A DNA stretch of 64,000 nucleotides from Sulfuritalea sp. (GTDB taxonomy: Bacteria; Pseudomonadota; Gammaproteobacteria; Burkholderiales; Rhodocyclaceae). Location: contig JAOTRV010000019.1 in the NCBI GenBank assembly GCA_030247575.1, forward strand, positions 13,336 to 77,335. Reading direction: 5' to 3'. Below the pieces are notes generated by a model. That model saw nothing but the letters and a program-made list of their open reading frames with translations, had not been told where the DNA came from and ran no database searches. This document shows, piece after piece, positions 43,875-56,228 of this stretch; position 1 is the first letter of the stretch, and the number at the start of each line of letters is the position of its first letter. The translations under genes and the position numbers were made by a program.

Positions 43875-46154
43875 ATGGCCATCACCACCGTAGCGGCCAA
43901 GCCGCTCACTTCCTATCGCAAGTACTGGGCGCTGCGCTTCGGCGTCGCGCCTTTCCTGCCCATGTCGCGCGCCGAAATGGACAAACTGGGATGGGACGAA
44001 TGCGACATCATCCTCGTCACCGGCGACGCCTATATCGACCATCCCAGCTTCGGCATGGCGCTGGTGGCCCGGCTGCTCGAAGCGCAGGGCTTTCGCGTCG
44101 GCCTGATCAGCCAGCCGGACTGGCACTCGTCAGATGATTTCAAGCGCCTGGGCAAGCCCAAGCTGTTCTTCGGCATCACCGCCGGCAACATGGATTCGAT
44201 GGTCAATCGCTACACCTCGGATCGCAAGATCCGCTCCGACGACGCCTACACACCCGGCGCCGCGCCGGACCGCCGCCCCGACCGCGCCGTGATCGTCTAT
44301 TCGCAGCGCGCCCGCGAAGCCTTCCCCGACGTGCCGCTGGTGATCGGCGGCATCGAGGCCAGCCTGCGCCGCATTGCGCACTACGACTACTGGTCGGACA
44401 AGGTGCGGCGCTCGATCCTGCCGCACTCGAAAGCCGACCTGCTGCTGTTCGGCAATGCCGAACGGGCGCTGGTCGACCTCGCCCACCGGCTGGCCCATGG
44501 CGAGAAGATCGCCGACATCCGCGACCTGCGCGGCACCGCCTTCATGGTGCCGCACGGCTGGCTGCCGGGGCCGGAGTGGGCCGAAGCGGATTCGACGACG
44601 GTGGATACGCCGGGGGCCGTGCATCCCCATCCCGACCCCTACGCCATGGAAGCCGACAAGCAGACCCCGAAAGTCGGTGCTGGCGACACGGCGGTCGTGC
44701 GCGTCGTCAGTCGCGCCGAACGGCTCGCGGCAACCAAGGAAGCACGCGCTCACACCGCGATTCGCCTGCCATCGTATGAGCAGGTGCGCGACGACCCGGT
44801 GCTCTACGCCCACGCCTCGCGTACCTTTCATCTCGAATCCAATCCCGGCAATGCGCGCGCGCTGATCCAGGCCCACGGCGAGGGCGCCAGCCGGCGCGAC
44901 CTATGGCTCAATCCGCCGCCGATTCCGCTGACCACCGAGGAGATGGACCACGTCTTCGGCCTGCCCTATGCCCGGGCGCCGCATCCGAGTTATGGCGACG
45001 CGAAAATTCCGGCCTGGGAGATGATCCGCTTCTCGATCAACATCATGCGCGGCTGCTTCGGCGGCTGTACCTTCTGCTCGATTACCGAACATGAAGGCCG
45101 CATCATCCAGAGCCGCTCGGAAGCCTCGATCCTGCACGAGATCGAGGAAATCCGCGACAAGACGCCCGGCTTCACCGGCGTGATTTCCGACCTCGGCGGG
45201 CCGACCGCCAACATGTACCGCATGGCCTGCAAGGACCCGCAGATCGAGTCCTCCTGCCGCCGCCTGTCCTGCGTCTATCCCGGCATCTGCGAAAACCTCG
45301 GCACCGACCACGCGCCGCTGATCTCGGTCTACCGCAAGGCACGCGCCCTGCCCGGCATCAAGAAGATCCTGATCAGCTCCGGCCTGCGCTATGACCTCGC
45401 GGTGCGCTCGCCCGAATACGTCAAGGAACTGGTGACCCACCATGTCGGCGGCTACCTGAAGATCGCGCCCGAGCACACCCAGGAAGGCCCGCTGTCGAAA
45501 ATGATGAAGCCGGGCATCGGCGCCTACGAACGCTTCAAGCAGATGTTCGACAAGTTCTCCAAGGAAGCCGGCAAGGAGCAGTACCTGATTCCCTACTTCA
45601 TCGCCGCGCATCCCGGCACCACCGATGAAGACATGCTGGAGCTGGCGCTGTGGCTGAAGAAGAACGGCTTCCGCCTCGACCAGGTGCAGACCTTCCTGCC
45701 GACGCCGCTGGCCATTGCCACGGCGATGTGGCACACGGAGAAAAATCCGCTGCGCAAGGTCACGACGGATTCGGAAGGCGTTGCCGTGGTGCGCGGCGGA
45801 CGCCAGCGCAAACTGCACAAGGCCTTCCTGCGTTATCACGATCCGGAAAACTGGCCCCTGCTGCGCGAAGCCTTGAAAGCCATGGGCCGCGCCGACCTGA
45901 TCGGGCCGGGCAAGCGCCACCTGATTCCGCCCTGGCAGCCGGCCGGCACGGGGACTTCGTCGTTGCCGCACCGCCAAACGACCCACGCCGGCAAGCGCCC
46001 GCAGAAGTTATGCAAAGCGGTATCCCCTGGTGGGACGGCGCCGGCGACACGGCGAACCACGCCTGCCGCGCCGGCCAAACCCGGCAAAGCCCCGCCGGCG
46101 CGCCGCCATCCGGACGTGCCGCGGCATCCGCTATCGCGCCGCAAGGGCGGCTGA
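43875..46154 (+). CDS. ygiQ: YgiQ-family radical SAM protein (UPF0313)
   Basis: 759 aa with the radical-SAM cluster motif CFGGCTFCS, YgiQ-type N- and C-terminal regions, and a basic Pro/Arg-rich tail. Confidence 0.9.
44673..44693 (+). repeat. Interspersed motif, copy K (GTCGGTGCTGGCGACACGGCG)
   Basis: Inside ygiQ on the sense strand. It encodes VGAGDTA. Confidence 0.75.
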
Positions 46155-46203
46155 GCGCAGAATAATCAGGGGAAATTGGGGTAGCTAGGGAGCAGGTAGA
46201 ATC

Positions 46204-46219
46204 GGGTGGCGGGAGGGTG
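46204..46219. repeat. Putative distal att core (GGGTGGCGGGAGGGTG)
   Basis: Matches 56136..56152 (GGGTGGCGGAGAGGGTG, the tRNA-Ser 3' end) with a single 1-nt gap. Confidence 0.45.
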
Positions 46220-46282
46220 TCTGTCACATTATGGCTTGAAAGCCGCGCCATCACTAGGCTTCTGCATAGCTTGATATTGCAG

Positions 46283-46302
46283 TTACCACGTTTCTTACCA
46301 CG
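46283..46302 (+). promoter_or_regulatory. Two TTACCACG repeats (candidate integrase arm-type sites, distal end)
   Basis: TTACCACG occurs at 46283..46290 and 46295..46302. The same octamer is found near the integrase start. Confidence 0.45.
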
Positions 46303-46717
46303 ATTTAGCGCGCGCTACCCCCTGTTTTGATGTTGTGGCGCAGGATCAACAGATCGGCACGGCCGGACCGGTGTTTCCTTTCCACCCAGCGCGCAGCGCC
46401 TGAATAAACAGCCGCAGCGAAGCAAGCCAGCATAGCCATTGTCCGGGCCGGGGCGCGAGACATAACCGACCATTACACGAACCCGCAGGGCGCGGCAGCG
46501 GCAGGCCATCAAGCGAAGCCCAGCGCAGCGGCTGGCCTGCTTTGTGTAATGCGCGGTTATGTTCAATCGCTTGCGATTTACCCCGGCCCGGCCGCGTGCC
46601 ATGCGCGCAGGGCGCGGTCATCGAGCTTTCCCCGGCGTAGCTGCCTGCGCCGTGGGCAGCCCTACCGCCGACGGCGCAGGCAGCGGACAGGACGCGCCCA
46701 TGCTGGCCAGGGCAATA

Positions 46718-46738
46718 GTCGGCGCTGGCGGGACGGCG
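46718..46738 (+). repeat. Interspersed motif, copy L (GTCGGCGCTGGCGGGACGGCG, consensus)
   Basis: In the non-coding arm of the integrative element. Confidence 0.85.
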
Positions 46739-46910
46739 ATCGCCAAAGGCACGAAGCCGTGACGCGGCCTTATCGCGTGACGGCGCGGCGCAGCAGGCGA
46801 GGCGGTAGCGATGGCGCGGGGCTTGCGGGTTTATTGCAAGCGCCGTGACTGAGCGGGCAGAGCACCCGACCGCCTAGCATTGGATCGCGCTCGCGTCGTC
46901 GGCTACGGCG

Positions 46911-47012
46911 ATCCGGCCGGCGTTGCCTTGGTGCAAGCGTTCGCAGAAATCCGCCACCCGGTGAGGGTGCGCCGGGGCGCACCTTCGCGCCAGAAATCGA
47001 GGGGCACGGACG
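46911..47012 (+). repeat. About 100-bp direct repeat, copy 1 (contains the 18-bp palindrome GGTGCGCCGGGGCGCACC flanked by CAGAAATC)
   Basis: Near-identical by eye to 47180..47280. Confidence 0.8.
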
Positions 47013-47179
47013 CGGACGCGGGCGATCGGTCGCCATTGGCGGCCGGGTTGATCGCCGCCGCTCGATCCAAGCGCGATCCGCAGGCCTCGCGCCTGGTAGC
47101 GGATGGCCGGCCCATGTGCCCAGCTTCCACCAGGGCGAAGCGTAGCGACGGGGACCGCCATTGCCGGCGAGCGGTGGCA

Positions 47180-47280
47180 ATCCGGCCGGCGTTGCGTGGT
47201 GCAGACGTTCGCAGAAATCCGCCACCCGGTGAGGGTGCGCCGGGGCGCACCTTCGCGCCAGAAATCGAGGGGGACGGACG
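47180..47280 (+). repeat. About 100-bp direct repeat, copy 2
   Basis: Near-identical by eye to 46911..47012. The period is about 269 bp. Confidence 0.8.
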
Positions 47281-47340
47281 GGGGCGCGGGTGAGGGTCTG
47301 CACCCGTCCAGGTGGAAAACCGGGGCACACTTTCCGCCCG

Positions 47341-47460
47341 GAAACCGGGGATATCCCCATCATCCGGGGTGCACTTTCGTCATTACCGGGGATCGCTAGA
47401 GCAAGTCATACCAAGGGTTCCCGCGATCAATCCCCGGAATCCCCGGTATCCCCGGTTCAA
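47341..47460 (+). repeat. 120-bp inverted-repeat arm L, carrying ATCCCCGG/CCGGGGAT octamer iterons (a triple tandem at the inner end)
   Basis: The reverse complement of 48027..48145 aligns along the full length (about 85% by eye, with the last 39 nt identical). Confidence 0.85.
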
Positions 47461-47738
47461 TTTTGGGGGATGGACTTGAGGCGGCAAAATCCCCGGTCCC
47501 TATATGTCTGACTTGATGGCTCTATTTATTCCAACAACATAGAGAGGTTTCCTGCTGCAGGGAGCTTGACCCTACCCCCCCCTCGGAAACCTCCGCTCAC
47601 AAAAATTTGATTAAGCGCCCGGTCCTGCGCTATGACGCTGTAGAGATTTTCCACCCCCACCCCTATGCGAAGTGCGGGTGTGCGCACGCAGTTAAGCGCC
47701 CGGTCTAGCACCATCGCAGCCCAGGGATTTACCCCCCC

Positions 47739-48011
47739 CTACCAGGTCAGCCCCGGCCATCGCTCCCGGCCTGGTCGCTGGTCGGGATCGTCGGCCGGTG
47801 GCGCGTATGCCTCGCATCGCTTTGGCATGTCGCAGATCGGCTGATAGTTCCGGCTGGCGACGATCTCACGGCGGGCGGCTGCATCGCAGCGGCCGGCCTC
47901 CGTCAGGTTGCCGCACAGCTCGCACGTGCGAAGGTCGCCCAGCGCCCGGAATATCGTTTCTCTGGCGCAGTTTGGTTTCTCCCCACCCACACCCCGCGCG
48001 CTCGGTTCCAT
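47739..48011 (-). CDS. Hypothetical Cys-rich small protein between the repeat arms
   Basis: 90 aa from the internal Met (MEPSARGV...RTCELCGNLTEAGRCD...ICDMPKRCEAY). The longer 159-aa version has an N-terminus made entirely of repeat-arm sequence. Confidence 0.35.
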   Translation of the reverse strand: MEPSARGVGGEKPNCARETIFRALGDLRTCELCGNLTEAGRCDAAARREIVASRNYQPICDMPKRCEAYAPPADDPDQRPGRERWPGLTW

Positions 48012-48026
48012 GTCCGTCCGGTGTTT

Positions 48027-48145
48027 TTGAACCGGGGATACCGGGGATTCCGGGGATTGATCGCGGAAACCATTGGTATGACTGGTTTCAGCAATCCCCG
48101 GTAAAGGTGAAAGTGCACCCCGGATATCGGAAATATCCCCGGTTT
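48027..48145 (-). repeat. 120-bp inverted-repeat arm R, carrying the same octamer iterons
   Basis: See arm L. It starts about 85 bp downstream of the primase-helicase stop. Confidence 0.85.
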
Positions 48146-48228
48146 TTGGGGAAGAAATCCCCGATTCTGACGGCATGGCCACGTCGGTGGACGGTATCAA
48201 GGCATCCCAATCGAGCATGATCGCGCCC

Positions 48229-51135
48229 CTATTCCAGGTCGAAGATCGCCGGCAGGATGTGGAACATCCGTTGGTAGGCTTCGCCCGGTGGCTTGATCTT
48301 CACGGCGAAGTGTTCCTTCTCCGTTTTCAGGTAGCCACGGCCGGCCAGCAGCTTCGCCACAGTGCGAGGATTGAAGCCCTTGCAGACTTCATTCTTGAAC
48401 ACCTGCGACAGCACCAGGTATTCGGTCACGATATCGTCACTCAGGTAGCCGCCCTCGTCCGGTGCCGCATCAACCAGGCGCCCGCTATCCTTGTCCATCA
48501 GCCGCCGCCATCCGGCCCGGTTCATCACGCGGTTCGCGTGCGTGTCCTTCGCCACCGATCGCCGCCAATCGGAGAACCGCGCTTCGCCGTGCATCTCCAG
48601 GAAGCCGCGTACCTGCATCAGCATCGCCCGTTCTTCCTGGTTGCCTTCGCCGCCCCGGTGATGCAGCCACGCCTCGAAACACGTGCCGGCCTGCTTTATT
48701 GCCGCGCCGGCTGTCCAGCCGGTAATCCCCCAGCGTGTCGCCAGCTCGCCGGCCGCGCCGACCAGGGCGCAGCGATCGGCAACCCTCAGCACCTGGTTGC
48801 CGGCCTCGTGCGTCAGGTAGCGCTCGGCAAACAGCTTGCGGGCCTTCAGCAGGGTTTCCCGGATCTCGTCGGTGTCGCGCTTCACCAGCTCGGAAAGGAA
48901 GGCGGGAAAGGCGGTGCCGTGGTGTTTCTTGACGGCATGCGCCAGGCGTTGAGAGAGCGCCTTGGGCGATGCTTCGCCGTGCAGCGCCTCATAGATGCCG
49001 GGTGGGTTGTCGCAGACGCGGGCGGGGATCTCCGCCATGCGGCCTTCCATGCCTGCCGTGGTGGCCATGCCGACCGATGCGACGTGCGCCGCCATGCCGA
49101 CTTCGCCGGTCGAGAGGAACAGGATTCTGAACTTCGCTGTTTCACGCAAGCCGCCTTGCGCCCGCGCCCGGTTCTTTCCGTTCGCGTTGCCCAGCATGTA
49201 AATCGTATCGCCCAGCACCTTGGCATTGATCTGTGCCAGCTCGTCCATTGCCAGCAGTGCATCGCAGTGCTGTAGCGCCAGGTATTCCATGCTGTTGTCG
49301 CTGGCCCGCCATTGCTTCATGTACTCCGGCCCGCCGCAGACGCTGGCAGCCACGCGCAGCGCCGTGGTTTTGCCGTCGCCGGACTCGCCCGAATAGTGAA
49401 TGCCGCCCGATTCGCCGCCGACCAGATCGAGCAACGGCGCGGCGAAGGCCAGGCAGACAGCGAAGGTCAGGCGGCTGTTATCCAGGCACAGGGCGGCAAC
49501 CTCCTGCCGCCATTCGTCCAGGGTGCCGCGTGCCCGGTAATCGGCCGCCGCCGCGCCATCCTCGAACAGCCACACTTCGTCAGCCTTGCCGATGGCGCGA
49601 TCGGGCAACACGAACACGCGGCCATCGCCGCTTTCATGCCAGCCCGTGCGCGCCGTGGTGCGGGCGCGTTCCTTCGGCTGCTGGGTCATCAGGTATTCCA
49701 GCAGCAGCGGCCGGCCCTTGGGGGCGATCTGCAAGCCCCAGCCCCGCAGCAGCTTTTCCAGCTCGGTGCCGTCGCCGCTCAGCATCGCGTCAGGGATAAC
49801 CTCGCGGTGCGGCTGGCGATCCGGGTCAAGGAACTGCACCAGCTTGCCCCATCCCTTGTTTGCCGGGTCGCGCACCATCGCCACCACGTCAAGCGTGCGG
49901 CATACCCAGCGCGGCGCGATCAGTTCCCCCTCTTTGCTGACGCCTACATACCAGGTGCCACGGGCGTCGACGTAGAAGTGCGGGCGCGGCCCGGTGTTGC
50001 CGTCGCTTGCCGTGTCGCCAGCGCCGACTTTCGCGGCATCGGCCGCAGCGGGCGCGGCCTTCTCGAACACCGGGAAGGCCTCCGGCAGTGCCGCCAGGCG
50101 CTCGGCAACCAGGGCAGCGGTGTAGCCCTCGGCTACCGCGTTGGCGGCGTCCCAGCCATCGGGCAGCGCCTCGCGTTGCGTGCCGTCAGGCAAGCTCAGG
50201 AAGCCCGCCGCATTCAGCCGGCGAACATCGGCCGCGCCTGCCACGTGCAGACGTTTGCACACTTCAGCGGCATACGCTTCGCCGGCCGCGTCGGCATCTG
50301 GCCACAGCACGCAGCGCCGGCCCGCCAGCGCCGACCAGTCGGCTTTATCTGCCGCCTTAGCCCCGTTCGGGCTGGTGATGGCCACATGCTCGGGAAACAG
50401 CAGCGCCGCCGCGTCGGCGGCCTTCTCGCCTTCGGTAATCACGACATCAGCACCAGGGCGAGCGGCGAGGCGATCAAGCCCATAGGGCGGGCGCAGCGGA
50501 TCAACCCCCAGCCATCGCCATTCCAGCTTCCCCGCTGGCGTGCGGCGCAGGCTCAAGGGGCGGATTTCCTTGCCACCTTCTGCCTGGTCGAAACGGCACA
50601 CCAGGAACAGCAGCCGGCCGGCTTCATCGCGGTATTCCCAAGCATGCGACGGTGCGCCTAGCTTGGGATGGCGCGCCGGTCGGGCCGGCGCATCGTCGGA
50701 CACGGGTAGCACGCATTCGCCGGCCGAATGGGCCGCGCCGTTTTGCGGGCCTTGGCGGGGTTTTCGTGGGGCGGCCGGTGCCTTCGCCTTGCCGGCCTCG
50801 CCTGCGGCCTGCGGTGCCGCGCCCTTGCCAGCCGGAACCGCAATGCCGAAGTGTTGCGCCAGTCGGCGCGCCGCGTCGGACTGCTTTTCGTCAGCCAGGT
50901 ATGCCGCCAGGGAAACCAGGTCAAGGCCACTCGCGCCGATGGCGAAATCACCCCATGCGCCGGATGTGGTGTTGATGCTGAAACTCCCCGGCGAGTTGTC
51001 CGGCCGGCGAGGATTCAGCGGCAGGTATTCCGGCCCCTGGTGCTTGCCGCCCGCCAGTCCGAGAAATGACATCGTGTCGGCGAAGCTCGCCAGGGCCGCA
51101 GCAGCGACACGCGGAATCCAGGAATCGGAGTTCAT
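48229..51135 (-). CDS. Bifunctional primase / replicative helicase (Toprim + DUF927/P4-alpha-like NTPase)
   Basis: 968 aa. Toprim (VVITEGEKAADAA...LWPDADAAGEAYA) and Walker A (GESGDGKTT). Confidence 0.9.
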   Translation of the reverse strand: MNSDSWIPRVAAAALASFADTMSFLGLAGGKHQGPEYLPLNPRRPDNSPGSFSINTTSGAWGDFAIGASGLDLVSLAAYLADEKQSDAARRLAQHFGIAVPAGKGAAPQAAGEAGKAKAPAAPRKPRQGPQNGAAHSAGECVLPVSDDAPARPARHPKLGAPSHAWEYRDEAGRLLFLVCRFDQAEGGKEIRPLSLRRTPAGKLEWRWLGVDPLRPPYGLDRLAARPGADVVITEGEKAADAAALLFPEHVAITSPNGAKAADKADWSALAGRRCVLWPDADAAGEAYAAEVCKRLHVAGAADVRRLNAAGFLSLPDGTQREALPDGWDAANAVAEGYTAALVAERLAALPEAFPVFEKAAPAAADAAKVGAGDTASDGNTGPRPHFYVDARGTWYVGVSKEGELIAPRWVCRTLDVVAMVRDPANKGWGKLVQFLDPDRQPHREVIPDAMLSGDGTELEKLLRGWGLQIAPKGRPLLLEYLMTQQPKERARTTARTGWHESGDGRVFVLPDRAIGKADEVWLFEDGAAAADYRARGTLDEWRQEVAALCLDNSRLTFAVCLAFAAPLLDLVGGESGGIHYSGESGDGKTTALRVAASVCGGPEYMKQWRASDNSMEYLALQHCDALLAMDELAQINAKVLGDTIYMLGNANGKNRARAQGGLRETAKFRILFLSTGEVGMAAHVASVGMATTAGMEGRMAEIPARVCDNPPGIYEALHGEASPKALSQRLAHAVKKHHGTAFPAFLSELVKRDTDEIRETLLKARKLFAERYLTHEAGNQVLRVADRCALVGAAGELATRWGITGWTAGAAIKQAGTCFEAWLHHRGGEGNQEERAMLMQVRGFLEMHGEARFSDWRRSVAKDTHANRVMNRAGWRRLMDKDSGRLVDAAPDEGGYLSDDIVTEYLVLSQVFKNEVCKGFNPRTVAKLLAGRGYLKTEKEHFAVKIKPPGEAYQRMFHILPAIFDLE
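50008..50028 (-). repeat. Interspersed motif, copy M (revcomp GTCGGCGCTGGCGACACGGCA)
   Basis: Inside the primase-helicase on the sense strand. It encodes VGAGDTA. Confidence 0.75.
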
Positions 51136-51461: not shown

Positions 51462-52059
51462 GGCGCGCACCTTCGGCGGGTGCGGTTGCCCAGGCCGGCC
51501 GATCTTCAATCCACAGATCGGATACGCCGGGGTCAATGCCAGTCAGCAGCGTTTCCCGCGCCCGTTCGGTCAGGCGCGCATTCGTGAGCGCGTCAATATT
51601 GGCGATGATCGCCGGCAACCGGCCGGGGTGATGCAGGGCGATTTCCAGAAACTCACCCATGCGGCAGATGAAGGAAAACCGCACGCCTGTAGCGACAGGA
51701 GGCAGCGGCAGCAAATCAGCGATATCGAGAATCAGGGACTGCGCCGGATCGGCGGCGAAGGCATCGCTGCCGTAGAGCGGCCAAGGGCGCAGCAGCTTCA
51801 AGGCAGCATCGCCGATCAGCGCACCCAGCGAATACACCCCCATGCCGATTGGGTCGACATGAATGACGGGCGTCAGCATGGGCGCTTTGCCAATGACATG
51901 AAACGCCATCGCCCGGAAGCTCGGAAGCTGGCCTATGTGGGCATGGTTGTTTTCGCCGATATGGAAATCATGGGGCGGCAGCGGCGCGGTTGCCTGGTTG
52001 AAAGTCGGCGCTGGTGGCACGGCGAACAGTCGGCGCGGTGGTGTTGTGCGGTCAGTCAT
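51454..52059 (-). CDS. Hypothetical island protein
   Basis: 201 aa ORF between the AlpA-like gene and the primase module. No domain recognised. It contains one interspersed-motif copy. Confidence 0.5.
   Translation of the reverse strand: MTDRTTPPRRLFAVPPAPTFNQATAPLPPHDFHIGENNHAHIGQLPSFRAMAFHVIGKAPMLTPVIHVDPIGMGVYSLGALIGDAALKLLRPWPLYGSDAFAADPAQSLILDIADLLPLPPVATGVRFSFICRMGEFLEIALHHPGRLPAIIANIDALTNARLTERARETLLTGIDPGVSDLWIEDRPAWATAPAEGARHE
52004..52024 (+). repeat. Interspersed motif, copy N (GTCGGCGCTGGTGGCACGGCG)
   Basis: Inside the island ORF 51454..52059, antisense to the gene. It encodes AVPPAPTF. Confidence 0.75.
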
Positions 52060-52295
52060 GATTGCCCCTCCGCACTACGCGATGCAGCAACGCGCTCACG
52101 CAGCCAGGCGTCGATTTCAGACGCCAGCCAGCCCACAGACTGCGCGCCTAGTTGTATCGGCTTGGGGAAGGTGCCGGCAGCAACCCCGGCATAGATGGTG
52201 GAACACGAAAGCCCCACACGGTCTTCTACTTGCTTGCGCCGGAGTATTTTCAACTCGGCATTTTCTGGTGATGCGGTTTCGCTACTCGCTCGCAT
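52056..52295 (-). CDS. alpA: AlpA-family phage/island transcriptional regulator (excisionase-like)
   Basis: KILRRKQVEDRVGLSCSTIYAGVAAGTFPKPIQLGAQSVGWLASEIDAWL is the classic AlpA HTH. The start was chosen at an internal Met. Confidence 0.75.
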   Translation of the reverse strand: MRASSETASPENAELKILRRKQVEDRVGLSCSTIYAGVAAGTFPKPIQLGAQSVGWLASEIDAWLRERVAASRSAEGQS

Positions 52296-52439
52296 GATTG
52301 CGTCCTTTGCAGAGCGTTCCGTTACGCACCATGCGCAACGCAACGACTGGACGCAAAACTAAAATGGGTATCCAGCTATCCGCCAGACGGCACGCGCAAG
52401 CGCGGCCTCTATGGGCTTCCGCCGAAATGGGTAGAACCG

Positions 52440-53303: not shown

Positions 53304-53411
53304 ACCGCACCCCTTGTGCGCCCCTCAATGCAGGATCGCCGCGCCGGCCGGGTAAGGGTGCCCGGTGTTCGCCCTTGGGGATCAGCCGCAGGCTAGGCGC
53401 AGCGAAAACAC

Positions 53412-54741: not shown

Positions 54742-55974
54742 TTATGCCGCGTGCCCATGCAGTGGGATTACTTGAGCGCCGGCCTTGATCTTGTCCAGGT
54801 AATCGGCCCATGCCTGCATCATTACAAAGCGCTGCGGCAGGTATTCCGCCCTGTTGTAGGCTCCCCGCACTTCGTCCCGCTCGCAGTGTGCGAGCTGGCG
54901 CTCTATCACGTCGGGGCGATAGCCCTGCTCGTTCAGCATGGTTGAGGCCACGGCGCGGAAGCCGTGCCCGGTCATCTTGCCTTTGTACCCCAGGCGGTAG
55001 AGCGCAAACAGCATGGTGTTGTTGCTGATCGGTTTATCCCGGTTCCTGCCAGGGAACACGAAGCGGTTGCGGCCGGCGAGAATCTGCAGCTCGCCAAGGA
55101 TCGCCAGGGCTTGGGTTGAAAGCGGAACAATATGCTCTGACTTCATTTTCATTCTGGCGGCAGGGATAACCCATAGCGCGGCCTCCTGGTCGAACTCCGA
55201 CCACTCCGCGCCGATCAGTTCATTCGTTCGCACAAAGGTAAGCGCGAGCAACTGCAGGGCGAGCATGGTTTGCTTGTCGCCCGTCGCGCCATAGGTATCG
55301 ATGGCCCGCAGCAGCTCAGGGACTTCCTCCGGCCTGACGGCGGCCTGGTGTTTCTTGACGTGCGGCGCCAGGGCGCCCCGCAGATCGGCGGCCACGTCCC
55401 GCTTGCAGGCGCCGGTGGCGATGCCGTAGCGGAACACCTGCCCACACGCCTGCAGCAGCCGGTGCGCCAGGTCATGGGCGCCGCGCTTTTCGATCTTGCG
55501 GGCCATTTCCAGCAGCTCCGGCGCCTCGATCTCGGCAATCGGCCGCGCCCCGATGATCGGGAAGGCGTTCCGTTCGAACCGGCGCAGAACATCGTCGGCG
55601 TGTTTCGGTGCCCAGGTATGCAGTTGCTTGGCGTACCACTCGCGGGCAACCGCCTCGAACGAGTTTCCAGCCGCCAGGCGCTCGCGCCGTTTGGCGGCCT
55701 TGCGCTCTACTGCCGGATCAATGTCCCCATCCATCAGCCGGCGGTTATCGTCCCGGCGCTGGCGGGCTTCCTTCAGCCCGATCTTGGGATAGACCCCCAG
55801 GGAGATGGATTTTTCCTTGCCGCCAACCCAGTAGCGCAGGCGCCAGTATTTCCGCCCATCCTCATAAACCCACAGGTAAAGCCCCGCACCATCGTGGAGC
55901 TTGCGTATACTCGCCCCGGCGCTGGTGGCGTTGTCGCATTCCTTCGCCGTCAGGGTATTCAGTTTCGCGGCCAT
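54742..55974 (-). CDS. int: Tyrosine integrase (P4-type, DUF4102 N-terminus)
   Basis: KLHDGAGLYLWV..GRKYWRLRY at the N-terminus. Catalytic HGFRAVAST...LAHCERDEVRGAYNRAEY. Adjacent to tRNA-Ser. Confidence 0.9.
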   Translation of the reverse strand: MAAKLNTLTAKECDNATSAGASIRKLHDGAGLYLWVYEDGRKYWRLRYWVGGKEKSISLGVYPKIGLKEARQRRDDNRRLMDGDIDPAVERKAAKRRERLAAGNSFEAVAREWYAKQLHTWAPKHADDVLRRFERNAFPIIGARPIAEIEAPELLEMARKIEKRGAHDLAHRLLQACGQVFRYGIATGACKRDVAADLRGALAPHVKKHQAAVRPEEVPELLRAIDTYGATGDKQTMLALQLLALTFVRTNELIGAEWSEFDQEAALWVIPAARMKMKSEHIVPLSTQALAILGELQILAGRNRFVFPGRNRDKPISNNTMLFALYRLGYKGKMTGHGFRAVASTMLNEQGYRPDVIERQLAHCERDEVRGAYNRAEYLPQRFVMMQAWADYLDKIKAGAQVIPLHGHAA

Positions 55975-56003
55975 CGTGGTAACTCCCGATACACGGTTTT
56001 GAG

Positions 56004-56034
56004 CTACCACCATTTTTACCACGGTATTACCACG
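56004..56034 (+). promoter_or_regulatory. Three (C/T)TACCAC(C/G) repeats (candidate integrase arm-type sites, int-proximal)
   Basis: CTACCACC at 56004, TTACCACG at 56016 and TTACCACG at 56027. They have the same orientation as the distal pair. Confidence 0.45.
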
Positions 56035-56079
56035 GATTCAATAGGGCTAGTTCGGAACGATTGGGAACGCGCTACACGT

Positions 56080-56106
56080 AAAAAAGCCCGCAGTGGCGCG
56101 GGCTTT
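56080..56106 (-). terminator. Rho-independent terminator downstream of tRNA-Ser
   Basis: GCCCGC-N6-GCGGGC hairpin (56086..56103) followed on the minus strand by a T6 run. Confidence 0.55.
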
Positions 56107-56138
56107 CGGAATAATCTGGAATGGTTCGGTAGTGTGGG

Positions 56139-56228
56139 TGGCGGAGAGGGTGGGATTCGAACCCACGGATGCCTTGCGACATCGCCTGATTTCGAGTCAG
56201 GTACATTCGACCACTCTGCCACCTCTCC
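56139..56228 (-). tRNA. tRNA-Ser (anticodon CGA)
   Basis: Folded by hand as a 90-nt cloverleaf. Acceptor GGAGAGG/CCTCTCC, anticodon arm CCTGA-CTCGAAA-TCAGG, long variable arm, T-arm GTGGG-TTCGAAT-CCCAC, and an encoded CCA. Confidence 0.9.

What the first reader, a model, noticed from the sequence alone, without database searches (positions are those of the whole stretch)
46911..48170. Iteron-rich inverted and direct repeat architecture directly downstream of the primase-helicase: candidate replication origin or invertible segment
Two 120-bp arms (47341..47460 and 48027..48145) are inverted copies of each other. Each ends, on the side facing the 566-bp spacer, with three tandem ATCCCCGG(A/T) octamers, and each holds further copies in both orientations. 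Additional octamers flank the arms at about 47322, 47488 and 48158.

Upstream lie two about 100-bp direct repeats (46911..47012 and 47180..47280). Each contains an 18-bp perfect palindrome GGTGCGCCGGGGCGCACC bracketed by CAGAAATC.

A 17-nt unit CCGGGGNGCACNTTCNC recurs at about 46971, 47240, 47320 and 47364, and inverted at about 48108.

In SaPI/PICI elements the ori lies just 3' of rep and consists of iteron sets flanking an AT-richer core. As I recall, P4 ori/crr also uses octamer iterons, with crr built of two roughly 120-bp repeats. The spacer here is the least GC-rich part of the region.

Alternatively, 120-bp inverted repeats could mediate inversion of the spacer. The spacer holds a small Cys-rich ORF whose longest N-terminus is encoded by arm R, and arm L encodes the same peptide reading inward.
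Basis: partly seen in the sequence, partly recalled or inferred. Interest (0 to 1): 0.65.

Follow-up and report, generated by a model that had tools for sequence, protein, structure and literature searches.

The report
Two-armed iteron origin of a phage-satellite island
The inverted 124-bp repeats packed with ATCCCCGG octamers just after the primase-helicase gene are most likely the replication origin of a 10-kb phage-satellite-like island: an ordinary kind of element, built in an unusual two-armed way, with one arm lying inside a conserved gene.

Summary
Arms 47337-47460 and 48027-48150 are 124 nt long and 86% complementary. Eleven of the window's 13 ATCCCCGG copies lie in them or beside them.

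The region belongs to a ~9.9-kb island integrated at tRNA-Ser. The island carries an integrase, AlpA and a DUF927 primase-helicase related to SaPIbov1 Rep.

About half of some 140 related loci carry an arm of this kind: three 7-8-mers at exact 9-bp spacing, usually just after the helicase gene, and in about 20 inspected arms also opposed single copies. A second, inverted arm lies 0.1-1 kb away or just after the integrase gene.

The octamer sequence differs between lineages and changes together with the helicase's last ~60-90 residues, a predicted winged helix. It does not follow the helicase core, the integrase or AlpA. Two independent swaps are visible.

I therefore read the arms as helicase-binding iterons of a two-part origin. 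A conserved AT-rich tract (47501-47540) beside arm L is the likely melting site.

The inversion idea is not supported. The two ~118-bp direct repeats are a duplication found in this genome but in none of the relatives examined, of a tail module that does not follow the iterons. Their role is unknown, but they are transcribed.

This is a new variant of a known kind (PICI/SaPI ori; P4 crr/ori).

The parts
48229..51135 (-). DUF927 primase-helicase (968 aa): Toprim primase part, helicase core of the SaPIbov1-Rep/Cch type, and a C-terminal winged-helix domain. The last ~60-90 residues (about 48229-48500) are the inferred iteron-recognition module.
   Evidence: Pfam DUF927 E 2e-77. Profile hits to PDB 8tch (E 4e-22), 5dgk, and T7 gp4 Toprim. 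C-terminal model pLDDT 80.5 with Foldseek hits to the 8tch C-terminal region and the TcpK wHTH. Mosaic divergence of the last 270 nt.
48027..48150 (.). Arm R, the helicase-proximal arm ('arm 1'), with 5 exact octamers. Read on the minus strand, 5' to 3', it holds two exact and one degenerate single copies in one orientation (exact at 48135 and 48094; degenerate in 48107-48123), then a 36-bp core of 47% GC containing GAAACCA..TGGTTTC, then three tandem copies in the other orientation at 9-bp spacing (48050, 48041, 48032). It lies inside orf159.
47739..48218 (-). orf159, a conserved gene that starts 8 nt after the helicase stop codon and reads through arm R. Its N-terminus is MLDWDALIPS. The arm encodes a low-complexity linker (…SPESPVSPV…). 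The C-terminal domain is Cys-rich (CxxC…C…RC…DDPDQRPGRERWPGL). Function unknown.
   Evidence: ORF list. The same ORF and N-terminal motif occur in relatives down to ~45% helicase identity. 30 homologues, all 'hypothetical', no Pfam family. AF2 model pLDDT 46, with most of residues 8-101 below pLDDT 50.
47461..48026 (.). 566-bp spacer between the arms. It holds the coding sequence of the orf159 C-terminal domain (down to 47739), then a variable non-coding stretch with an 81-bp-spaced repeat (47611-47658 and 47692-47739) and three C-runs. The copy number of that repeat varies among relatives.
   Evidence: A contig in run X2 skips 47639-47736.
47501..47540 (.). AT-rich tract (33% GC in a 63% GC island), 45 bp from the triple octamers of arm L. 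It is the candidate DNA-unwinding element. It is conserved (25-32% GC, similar sequence) in all six members of the close clade, whatever their iteron type.
47600..47612 (-). Exact match to the IHF consensus WATCAANNNNTTR (AATCAAATTTTTG). This is a weak lead only.
   Evidence: No chance expectation was computed.
47489..47496 (+). Extra exact octamer between arm L and the AT-rich tract.
47337..47460 (.). Arm L, the distal arm ('arm 2'): an inverted copy of arm R with the same internal layout. It is non-coding.
47176..47293 (.). Direct repeat D1, copy b, with the interrupted palindrome at 47234-47251 flanked by CAGAAATC.
47026..47175 (.). Segment between the D1 copies. It holds two short modules (47116-47157 and 47070-47101) that recur 1-3 times in relatives L002, L004 and L085. 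It is part of the 268-bp tandem unit that is transcribed.
   Evidence: RNA contig 46942-47239.
46907..47025 (.). Direct repeat D1, copy a (palindrome at 46966-46983). Relatives L001, L002, L004 and L089/L090 have a single D1 copy, so the duplication is seen only in this genome among those examined.
46204..46219 (.). Island end: GGGTGGCGGGAGGGTG, a direct repeat (16 of 17 positions, one indel) of the tRNA-Ser 3' end GGGTGGCGGAGAGGGTG at 56137-56153.
   Evidence: Read. No exact repeat of 10 nt or more was found. Segment 46666-46738 also occurs in islands at other integration sites.
54742..56228 (-). tRNA-Ser(CGA) 56139-56228 and the adjacent tyrosine integrase 54742-56022. This is the other end of the island.
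52056..52343 (-). AlpA-family regulator of the island.
   Evidence: Pfam Phage_AlpA E 5e-17.

Best explanation
**What it is.** The two 124-bp inverted arms are the cis-acting replication origin of a ~9.9-kb integrative, phage-satellite-like island (tRNA-Ser, int, RadC, alpA, DUF927 primase-helicase).

**How an arm is built.** Each arm has opposed ATCCCCGG iterons on either side of a 36-bp lower-GC core, and it ends in three iterons phased at 9 bp.

**How it most likely works.**
1. After excision, hexamers of the island's own primase-helicase bind the iterons through the C-terminal winged-helix domain. This is inferred from co-variation and from homology to SaPIbov1 Rep.
2. One complex is placed on each arm, in opposite orientations.
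3. The DNA melts, most likely at the conserved AT-rich tract 47501-47540 beside arm L.
4. The helicase loads itself, and its Toprim domain primes synthesis.

The pair of arms plays the part that the two iteron sets play in SaPI/PICI origins and that crr plus ori play in P4. Here the arms are separated by 566 bp.

**Arm R is also coding sequence.** It forms the linker-coding part of a conserved downstream gene (orf159). Helicase binding there may therefore also gate that gene. That last step is speculation.

**The direct repeats are not part of this machinery.** The two ~118-bp repeats upstream (46907-47293) are a tandem duplication, seen only in this genome among those examined, of a transcribed tail module of unknown role.
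For: **Shown**
- The octamers are strongly clustered (13 against 3.1 expected, 11 of them in 800 bp). The arms are 86% complementary over 124 nt.
- The helicase belongs to DUF927. Its profile matches SaPIbov1 Rep (8tch, E 4e-22) and Cch (5dgk).
- SaPI Reps bind iterons lying immediately 3' of rep through a C-terminal winged helix (PMC9371898, PMC7581432).
- Gram-negative PICIs have the int-alpA-pri/rep-ori layout, and a tested EcCICFT073 pri-rep-ori replicon is functional (PMC6092414).
- The C-terminal 168 residues fold (pLDDT 80.5) into a domain whose best PDB matches are the C-terminal part of 8tch and the oriT-binding wHTH protein TcpK.
- The 9-bp triple signature recurs.
  - Genome set: about half of the loci carry a 9-bp-phased triple. 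About 20 arms printed share the same overall layout of opposed single copies, a central region and the triple.
  - Independent IMG/VR set: 30 of 53 loci have a 9-bp triple, and 25 have one within 700 bp after the helicase gene. Triples counted by spacing from 7 to 13 bp are 1, 9, 47, 3, 2, 5, 0.
  - In E. coli the arrangement lies in an intergenic gap, so it is a DNA-level feature.
- The iteron sequence is lineage-specific and follows the C-terminal domain, not the helicase core.

| Pair | Core identity | C-terminal identity | Iterons |
|---|---|---|---|
| WIN / L001 | 98% | 73% | ATCCCCGG vs GTTCCCCA |
| L004 / L085 | 95% | 72% | differ |
| WIN / L004 | 88% | 98% | same |

- The DNA identity profile between WIN and L001 is mosaic: 95% over the gene, 75-88% in its last 270 nt, 62-68% in arm 1, and 95% again in the spacer. 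Arm 2 has switched too.
- The same iterons occur with three different integrases and att sites (tRNA-Ser, tRNA-Val, tRNA-Met) and with a non-homologous gene in the AlpA position. Int and AlpA are therefore not the binders.
- An AT-rich tract is conserved next to arm 2 in the whole close clade.

**Inferred**
- The binding itself, the melting site and the loading mechanism.
Against: - There is no experimental evidence for binding or replication.
- In the source metagenome the island has the same depth as its flanks (30-37x against 28-33x), so it was not replicating there.
- The arms are 566 bp apart with a gene between them, unlike the compact SaPI/PICI origins. One arm could instead be an auxiliary or copy-control element (crr-like) rather than a site of initiation.
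- The co-variation rests on two switch events within one clade.
- The Foldseek E-values for the C-terminal domain are modest (about 3e-3).
- The AT-rich tract could be a promoter rather than an unwinding element.
Confidence: 0.8

Rival explanations
1. The arms bind the helicase, but mainly for copy control or as a replication enhancer (handcuffing or looping, like P4 crr or plasmid iteron control). Initiation itself would take place elsewhere, or at only one arm.
For: P4 crr consists of two 120-bp repeats directly after the alpha gene, with octamers in both orientations. It is required in cis, while ori lies 4.5 kb away. In many relatives the second arm is kilobases away, just after int, which shows the two arms can act at a distance. 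Only arm L has an adjacent AT-rich tract.
Against: The window has no third iteron cluster that could serve as a separate ori. Each arm already has the full SaPI/PICI layout of opposed iterons around a lower-GC core.
Confidence: 0.12
2. The octamers are operator sites for a transcription factor of the island (AlpA, the HTH protein or orf159) that control orf159 or downstream transcription. On this reading they are not an origin.
For: Arm R overlaps the 5' part of orf159. An RNA contig shows transcription downstream of arm L. AlpA also differs between WIN and L001 (~80% DNA identity).
Against: L004 shares the iterons but shows no DNA match to the window at the AlpA position, and the gene called there has no AlpA Pfam hit. 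The orf159 C-terminal domain is 95% identical in DNA between WIN and L001 although their iterons differ. The divergence boundary falls inside the helicase gene, exactly at its C-terminal domain. Homologous proteins are known origin binders (PMC9371898).
Confidence: 0.04
3. The 124-bp inverted repeats mediate inversion of the 566-bp spacer, acting as a switch for the Cys-rich ORF.
For: Long inverted repeats flank a small gene. Arm L would encode a similar peptide reading inward.
Against: There is no invertase in the island. The only recombinase is the tRNA-site tyrosine integrase at the far end. The ORF has a conserved N-terminus upstream of arm R, and an inversion would cut it off. All relatives have the same orientation. 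The arms diverge in concert with the helicase domain. In other relatives the second arm is kilobases away or only ~100 bp away.
Confidence: 0.02
4. The arms, or the D1 palindrome, are packaging signals (cos/pac, terminase small-subunit binding sites) used to hijack a helper phage.
For: Relative L001 carries a Nu1-type terS gene in the spacer. Other relatives carry head-tail and tape-measure-like genes. The GC-rich, nearly symmetric D1 core flanked by direct CAGAAATC copies resembles a cos-like layout. D1 is conserved whatever the iteron type.
Against: Most relatives, including the window, have arms but no terS. The arms co-vary with the helicase. The D1 core has no match in IMG/VR contigs or GenBank phages.
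Confidence: 0.02

Closest known systems
SaPI / PICI replication module (SaPIbov1 Rep + ori; E. coli EcCICFT073 pri-rep-ori)
   Same: The helicase is homologous to SaPIbov1 Rep and Cch (DUF927). It has a C-terminal winged-helix domain. The iterons lie immediately 3' of the gene, in both orientations, around lower-GC DNA. The island layout is int-alpA-pri/rep-ori, as in Gram-negative PICIs (PMC6092414, PMC9371898).
   Different: The iterons are 8-mers in a fixed 124-bp arm that is present twice, inverted, 566 bp apart. SaPI origins are compact, with 5-6-mers. One arm lies inside a conserved coding sequence. In relatives the second arm can sit after int.
Phage P4 alpha protein with crr and ori
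   Same: Two ~120-bp repeats lie directly downstream of the primase-helicase gene and near attP. Each carries octamer iterons in both orientations, with adjacent copies 9 bp apart. In relatives a second iteron cluster lies kilobases away (one search compared). The initiator is a fused primase-helicase.
   Different: P4 alpha is a Zn-ribbon/Toprim/D5 SF3 helicase with no detectable sequence similarity to this protein. The crr repeats are direct, not inverted. P4 has a separate ori, and the window has none.
Phage lambda O protein / ori-lambda
   Same: Origin iterons are embedded in a protein-coding sequence, where they encode a linker. Initiator specificity and iterons are exchanged together among relatives. 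This comparison rests on my own knowledge and was not tested here.
   Different: In lambda the iterons lie inside the initiator gene itself, and the initiator is not a helicase. Here they lie in the gene after the initiator.
SCCmec Cch / Cch2 helicases with downstream putative origins
   Same: Cch is a DUF927 helicase. Cch2, which belongs to a different helicase family, binds repeats just downstream of its gene (PMC7581432).
   Different: Those elements are Gram-positive cassettes with few (3) short direct repeats, no fused primase in Cch, and no long inverted arms.

Membership tests
SaPI/PICI-type replicon (Rep initiator-helicase plus adjacent iteron origin) | Initiator-helicase homologous to SaPI Rep proteins | tested here: met
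   Pfam DUF927 E 2e-77. Profile against PDB: 8tch SaPIbov1 Rep E 4e-22, 5dgk Cch E 7e-13.
SaPI/PICI-type replicon (Rep initiator-helicase plus adjacent iteron origin) | C-terminal winged-helix origin-binding domain | tested here: met
   Prediction only. The AF2 model of residues 801-968 has pLDDT 80.5. The best Foldseek matches are the 8tch C-terminal region (135-140 columns, probability 1.0) and the TcpK wHTH (64 columns, rmsd 2.1 A).
SaPI/PICI-type replicon (Rep initiator-helicase plus adjacent iteron origin) | Short repeats immediately 3' of the rep gene, in both orientations, flanking AT-richer DNA | tested here: met
   The arrangement is duplicated and spread over 814 bp rather than compact.
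SaPI/PICI-type replicon (Rep initiator-helicase plus adjacent iteron origin) | Iteron specificity matched to the initiator's C-terminal domain | tested here: met
   Two independent cassette switches (WIN/L001 and L004/L085), while the core stays 95-98% identical.
SaPI/PICI-type replicon (Rep initiator-helicase plus adjacent iteron origin) | Rep-dependent autonomous replication, and induction and packaging by a helper phage | not testable with these tools
   Circumstantial only. Relatives carry terS, tail-completion and tape-measure-like genes. The island was not amplified in the source sample.
P4-type replicon (alpha, ori, crr) | Alpha-type primase-helicase (Zn ribbon, Toprim, D5/SF3 helicase) | tested here: not met
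   No BLASTP similarity (best E 1.1). P4 alpha has the Zn_Ribbon_Prim, D5_N, DUF5906 and Pox_D5 domains, and the window protein has DUF927.
P4-type replicon (alpha, ori, crr) | crr: two directly repeated 120-bp units with octamer iterons just downstream of the helicase gene | tested here: not met
   Size, position and octamer content match, but the units are inverted and 566 bp apart (one search compared).
P4-type replicon (alpha, ori, crr) | Separate ori with the same iterons kilobases from crr | tested here: not met
   There is no third cluster in the window. Relatives do have a distant second arm after int.
Invertible DNA switch (Hin/Gin or Fim type) | Dedicated invertase gene next to the segment | tested here: not met
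   None of the island proteins scanned has a resolvase/invertase domain. The only recombinase is the att-site integrase 6.6 kb away.
Invertible DNA switch (Hin/Gin or Fim type) | Both orientations present in a population | tested here: inconclusive
   Only unitig-level data were available. All seven distinct related sequences examined, and the window, show one orientation.

The most novel reading that the evidence does not exclude
The origin is dual-coded and modular.

- One arm doubles as the linker-coding part of a conserved, uncharacterised gene (orf159). The 9-bp iteron phase equals a tripeptide repeat, and the motif M[IL][DN]Wx[AT]LIP at the protein start is kept down to ~45% helicase identity.
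- Helicase occupancy of the origin would then directly gate expression of a partner protein.
- The helicase C-terminal domain and both arms are exchanged as a specificity cassette. That would define incompatibility groups among satellites sharing a host.
- The position of the second arm (adjacent, 0.5-1 kb away, or after int) would set how two helicase hexamers are brought together by looping.
Probability: 0.25. Interest if true: 0.55.

Novelty: new variant of a known kind. Interest (0 to 1): 0.4.

Why it matters
The result gives a sequence-level rule for finding origins in a large, mostly unannotated family of DUF927 primase-helicase elements. These range from betaproteobacterial islands to Pseudomonas, and they include P4-like satellites present in 771 of 5426 complete E. 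coli genomes.

The rule has three parts:
- a ~120-bp arm whose hallmark is three iterons phased at 9 bp, with opposed single copies where inspected;
- a position usually just after the helicase gene;
- a second, inverted arm at a variable place.

The natural swaps of C-terminal domain plus arms give ready-made pairs for testing how a SaPI-Rep-type self-loading helicase reads its origin. They point to a handful of residues (for example GEA[Y/H]QRM and HFAV/RPDV) as specificity candidates.

None of this changes the general picture of satellite replication.

Tried and rejected
- **DNA similarity searches.**
  - 46200-48230 against plasmids: no match.
  - 46900-47300 against GenBank phages: no match.
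  - Exact D1 core in IMG/VR: no match. The cos/helper-borrowed idea for D1 therefore could not be supported.
- **Rfam.**
  - At gathering thresholds: only the tRNA and int-alpA RNA, neither in the region.
  - At permissive E-value on 46150-48250: only chance-level hits.
- **Promoter and terminator scan.** Nothing above the shuffled background.
- **RNA folding.**
  - The 268-bp D1 unit is not unusual on either strand (z about -1.4).
- **orf159.**
  - No Pfam or PHROG family.
  - The AF2 model is too poor for a fold search (pLDDT 46).
  - An Ogr/Delta-type zinc finger was considered, because E. coli relatives have one at the same position. It was rejected: no Pfam family, Ogr/Delta included, was reported for the protein, and the Cys spacing differs from the Ogr/Delta spacing as I recall it.
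- **Integrase arm-type sites.** Rejected, because the same iterons occur with three different integrases.
- **MITE or transposon ends.** Rejected, because one arm is fixed relative to the helicase gene and lies inside a conserved ORF across the family.
- **Inversion.** It could not be tested on reads, because only unitigs were available. They break at the repeats.
- **Metagenome scan with the single protein.** It added only four loci.
Full report
**1. What is in the sequence**

The repeats exist as described.
- Arms 47337-47460 and 48027-48150 are 124 nt long, 86% complementary and 566 nt apart.
- Exact ATCCCCGG occurs 13 times in the 64-kb window. Shuffles give a mean of 3.1 and a maximum of 7. 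Eleven copies lie between 47345 and 48142.
- Each arm ends, on the spacer side, with three copies at exact 9-bp spacing. Each arm also holds two exact copies in the opposite orientation.
- An extra exact copy lies at 47489. The copies claimed at ~47322 and ~48158 are only 6/8 and 7/8 matches.

The direct repeats are 46907-47025 and 47176-47293, 94-95% identical. Their 'palindrome' GGTGCGCCGGGGCGCACC (46966-46983 and 47234-47251) is an 8-bp inverted repeat around an asymmetric GG, not a perfect 18-mer. CAGAAATC does flank it on both sides.

The 17-nt unit has four matches at one mismatch or fewer, against 0.13 expected.

**2. Context**

The region is the tail of a ~9.9-kb island.
- tRNA-Ser(CGA) lies at 56139-56228 on the minus strand.
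- Next come a tyrosine integrase with an arm-binding domain, an HTH protein, RadC, an int-alpA RNA (Rfam, 48.9 bits), AlpA, three proteins without a known family, and a 968-aa DUF927 primase-helicase at 48229-51135 on the minus strand.
- The tRNA 3' end GGGTGGCGGAGAGGGTG (56137-56153) recurs as GGGTGGCGGGAGGGTG at 46204-46219, right after ygiQ.

Relatives come from Sulfuritalea and other Rhodocyclales-like metagenome bins. Some carry a Nu1-type terS, a tail-completion (HK97 gp10-like) gene or a tape-measure-like gene. The island is therefore best described as PICI/P4-like, meaning phage-satellite-like.

**3. The arms are a family feature**

*Close relatives.*
- L002/L003, L004 and L089/L090 (86-93% helicase identity) keep both arms and the ATCCCCGG octamer.
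- L001, L006 and L085 keep the arms at the same places but use GTTCCCC(A/G).

*Genome collection.* A ~120-bp arm begins 40-100 bp after the helicase stop in many of the 80 loci. In about 20 arms printed base by base it has the same overall layout: opposed single copies, a central ~40-nt region, three tandem copies at exactly 9-bp spacing, then an A-run. The 7-8-mer itself differs by lineage: TGTCCCGG, TGTCCCAG, GCCCCACT, TGTCTTAA, GGTGTAAC and others.

*Second arm.* It is inverted relative to the first. It lies either 0.1-1 kb further downstream, or, in nearly all loci where it is distant, 40-130 bp after the stop of the integrase gene, kilobases away.

*Independent IMG/VR set*.
- 30 of 53 loci have a 9-bp triple.
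- 25 have one within 700 bp after the helicase gene.
- Triples counted by spacing from 7 to 13 bp are 1, 9, 47, 3, 2, 5 and 0. The 9-bp phase is therefore specific.

*E. coli.* In a P4-like element the same layout fills the 283-bp intergenic gap between the DUF927 gene and an ogr/delta-like gene. The layout is thus a DNA-level feature and not a by-product of coding.

**4. What binds the arms**

The helicase profile matches SaPIbov1 Rep (8tch, E 4e-22) and Cch (5dgk). Its residues 198-342 match the T7 gp4 Toprim region.

SaPI Reps recognise iterons immediately downstream of rep through a C-terminal winged helix. Two hexamers are thought to load on either side of an AT-rich centre (PMC9371898, PMC7581432). 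Gram-negative PICIs have the same organisation, and a tested EcCICFT073 replicon is functional (PMC6092414).

A model of residues 801-968 (pLDDT 80.5) finds as its best PDB matches the C-terminal part of 8tch and the oriT-binding winged-helix protein TcpK.

Co-variation is the strongest argument.

| Pair | Core identity | Last 62 residues | Iterons |
|---|---|---|---|
| WIN / L001 | 98% | 73% | differ |
| L004 / L085 | 95% | 72% | differ |
| WIN / L004 | 88% | 98% | same |

At the DNA level WIN and L001 are 95% identical along the gene. Identity falls to 75-88% in the last 270 nt and to 62-68% in arm 1, then returns to 95% in the spacer. Arm 2 has switched as well.

The amino-acid differences between WIN and the L001 protein concentrate in residues 921-960, for example GEAYQRM to GEAHQRM and HFAV to RPDV.

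The same iterons occur with integrases that target tRNA-Ser, tRNA-Val and tRNA-Met, and with a non-homologous gene in place of AlpA. Those proteins are therefore excluded as the binders.

**5. Anatomy of the origin in the window**

Read in the direction of the helicase gene, the order is:
1. the helicase stop;
2. the start of orf159, 8 nt later;
3. arm R (singles, a 36-bp core of 47% GC with GAAACCA..TGGTTTC, then the triple);
4. the orf159 C-terminal domain;
5. a variable non-coding stretch with an 81-bp-spaced repeat and G-runs;
6. an exact IHF-consensus match (47600-47612);
7. a 33% GC tract (47501-47540);
8. one extra iteron (47489);
9. arm L.

The AT-rich tract is conserved (25-32% GC, ~48 bp from the triple) in all six members of the close clade, whatever their iteron type. 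It is my candidate melting site.

**6. Arm R is coding**

The ORF at 47739-48218 (minus strand) is not a chance open frame.
- Its N-terminus MLDWDALIPS recurs as M[IL][DN]Wx[AT]LIP right at the helicase stop in about 20 relatives, down to ~45% helicase identity.
- The frame stays open through arms of quite different sequence.
- The 9-bp triple is read as a tripeptide repeat: SPE-SPV-SPV, SPR-SPR-SPR, APL-APL-APL or VPD-VPD-VP.

The C-terminal Cys-rich domain (…RTCxxCxNL…GRC…RRCEGY…DDPDQRPGRERWPGL) is also found behind other N-termini. It has no Pfam or PHROG family. The model is of low confidence, with the arm-encoded part predicted to be unstructured.

**7. The direct repeats**

- L089/L090 sits at the same chromosomal site and has one D1 copy. 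L001, L002 and L004 also have one. The 268-bp duplication is thus seen only in this genome among those examined.
- D1 in L001 is 97% identical over 37 nt although its iterons have switched. D1 is therefore not part of the helicase-binding set.
- The segment between the copies contains short modules that recur 1-3 times in L002, L004 and L085. This tail is repeat-prone.
- A metatranscriptome from the same study as the source sample holds a 298-nt contig covering 46942-47239 at depth 361. The island's other RNA contigs have depths of 83-264.
- Its first and last 30 nt are the same D1 sequence. It is therefore a closed unitig of the 268-bp unit, with no branches into the flanks.
- Something here is transcribed, with both ends inside D1. 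The strand and the function are unknown.
- No Rfam match, no unusual fold and no phage match were found.

**8. Inversion**

- No invertase is present.
- The conserved N-terminus of orf159 lies outside the segment that would invert.
- All relatives show one orientation.
- Read-level data were not available. The unitigs simply break at the repeats.

**9. Comparison with known systems**

The helicase is a member of the SaPIbov1-Rep/Cch (DUF927) family, and the island layout is that of Gram-negative PICIs.

The cis architecture looks most like P4 crr. The annotated P4 record shows two 120-bp repeats just after alpha and next to attP, each with five octamers in both orientations and adjacent ones 9 bp apart, plus an ori 4.5 kb away. 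However, P4 alpha is unrelated in sequence, the crr repeats are direct, and the window has no third cluster.

Iterons inside a coding linker recall ori-lambda within gene O. That comparison rests on my own knowledge.

**10. Verdict**

The finding is real and the origin reading is right in outline.
- The spacer as a whole is not the AT-rich core.
- The direct repeats are a separate matter.
- Inversion is unlikely.

This is a new variant of a known kind, of moderate interest.

In the source sample the island was at chromosomal copy number. Nothing here shows activity.

Noticed in passing
46942-47239: A metatranscriptome run from the same study as the source sample has a 298-nt contig at depth 361 that closes on itself (268-bp unit plus a 30-nt overlap). 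It covers exactly the tandem D1 unit. The transcript appears to have both ends inside the D1 core. Strand and function are unknown.
   Followed up: partly
46457-46585: A long-range inverted repeat (ACATAACCG.CATTACAC … GTGTAATG.GCGGTTATGT) encloses ~70 nt in the island tail near the att end. It is nearly identical in the syntenic relative L090. The RNA fold z-score is -3.1 on the + strand and -2.2 on the - strand. It could be a structured RNA or a protein-binding site near attP.
   Followed up: partly
53322-53403 (-): An Rfam int-alpA RNA motif (48.9 bits) lies between RadC and the 287-aa gene. An RNA contig (53303-53586, depth 264) covers it in the same metatranscriptome.
   Followed up: no
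46803-46834 and 45914-46154: Short stretches have very high k-mer depth in the source metagenome and in its RNA run (up to ~3900x, against ~30x for the island). They are probably sequences shared with abundant unrelated organisms or repeats. A contig also joins 46740 to 50009.
   Followed up: no
47571-47588, 47651-47667, 47729-47744: Three C-runs (G-runs on the helicase-sense strand) are each paired with a TTAAGCGCCCGGTC motif or, for one of them, a 9-bp stem, in the non-coding part of the spacer. The copy number of the 81-bp unit varies between relatives, and one metagenome contig skips 47639-47736.
   Followed up: no
47739-48218 (-) and proteins P0139-P0150: The Cys-rich C-terminal domain of orf159 (…CxxCxNL…GRCxAAxRGEIxASRNYxP…RRCEGYxP…DDPDQRPGRERWPGL) forms an unannotated family. 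It also occurs behind other N-terminal regions, some with the FEERAAIMEYDGG motif.
   Followed up: partly
L001 4144-6525 and 10609-11076; L002 9182-9796: Relatives carry different cargo in the same slots. Just upstream of the helicase gene there is a tape-measure-like 793-aa protein or an HK97-gp10-like tail-completion protein. One relative has a Nu1-type terS inside the origin spacer. The window's island has none of these. Several relatives also have HicAB where the window has only the HTH gene.
   Followed up: partly
L005 (+6584 from the helicase stop): In this 89%-identical relative the only ATCCCCGG triple found lies 6.6 kb downstream of the helicase gene instead of directly after it. That suggests an insertion or rearrangement between the gene and its origin.
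   Followed up: no
L175 (E. coli NZ_CP028769.1 1453252-1470058): A P4-like E. coli satellite (P2-type capsid-related gene, Icd-like, ogr/delta-like, tRNA-Arg integrase) uses a DUF927 helicase instead of alpha. It has a compact GGTAACA iteron origin. Similar DNA is present in 771 of 5426 complete E. coli genomes.
   Followed up: partly
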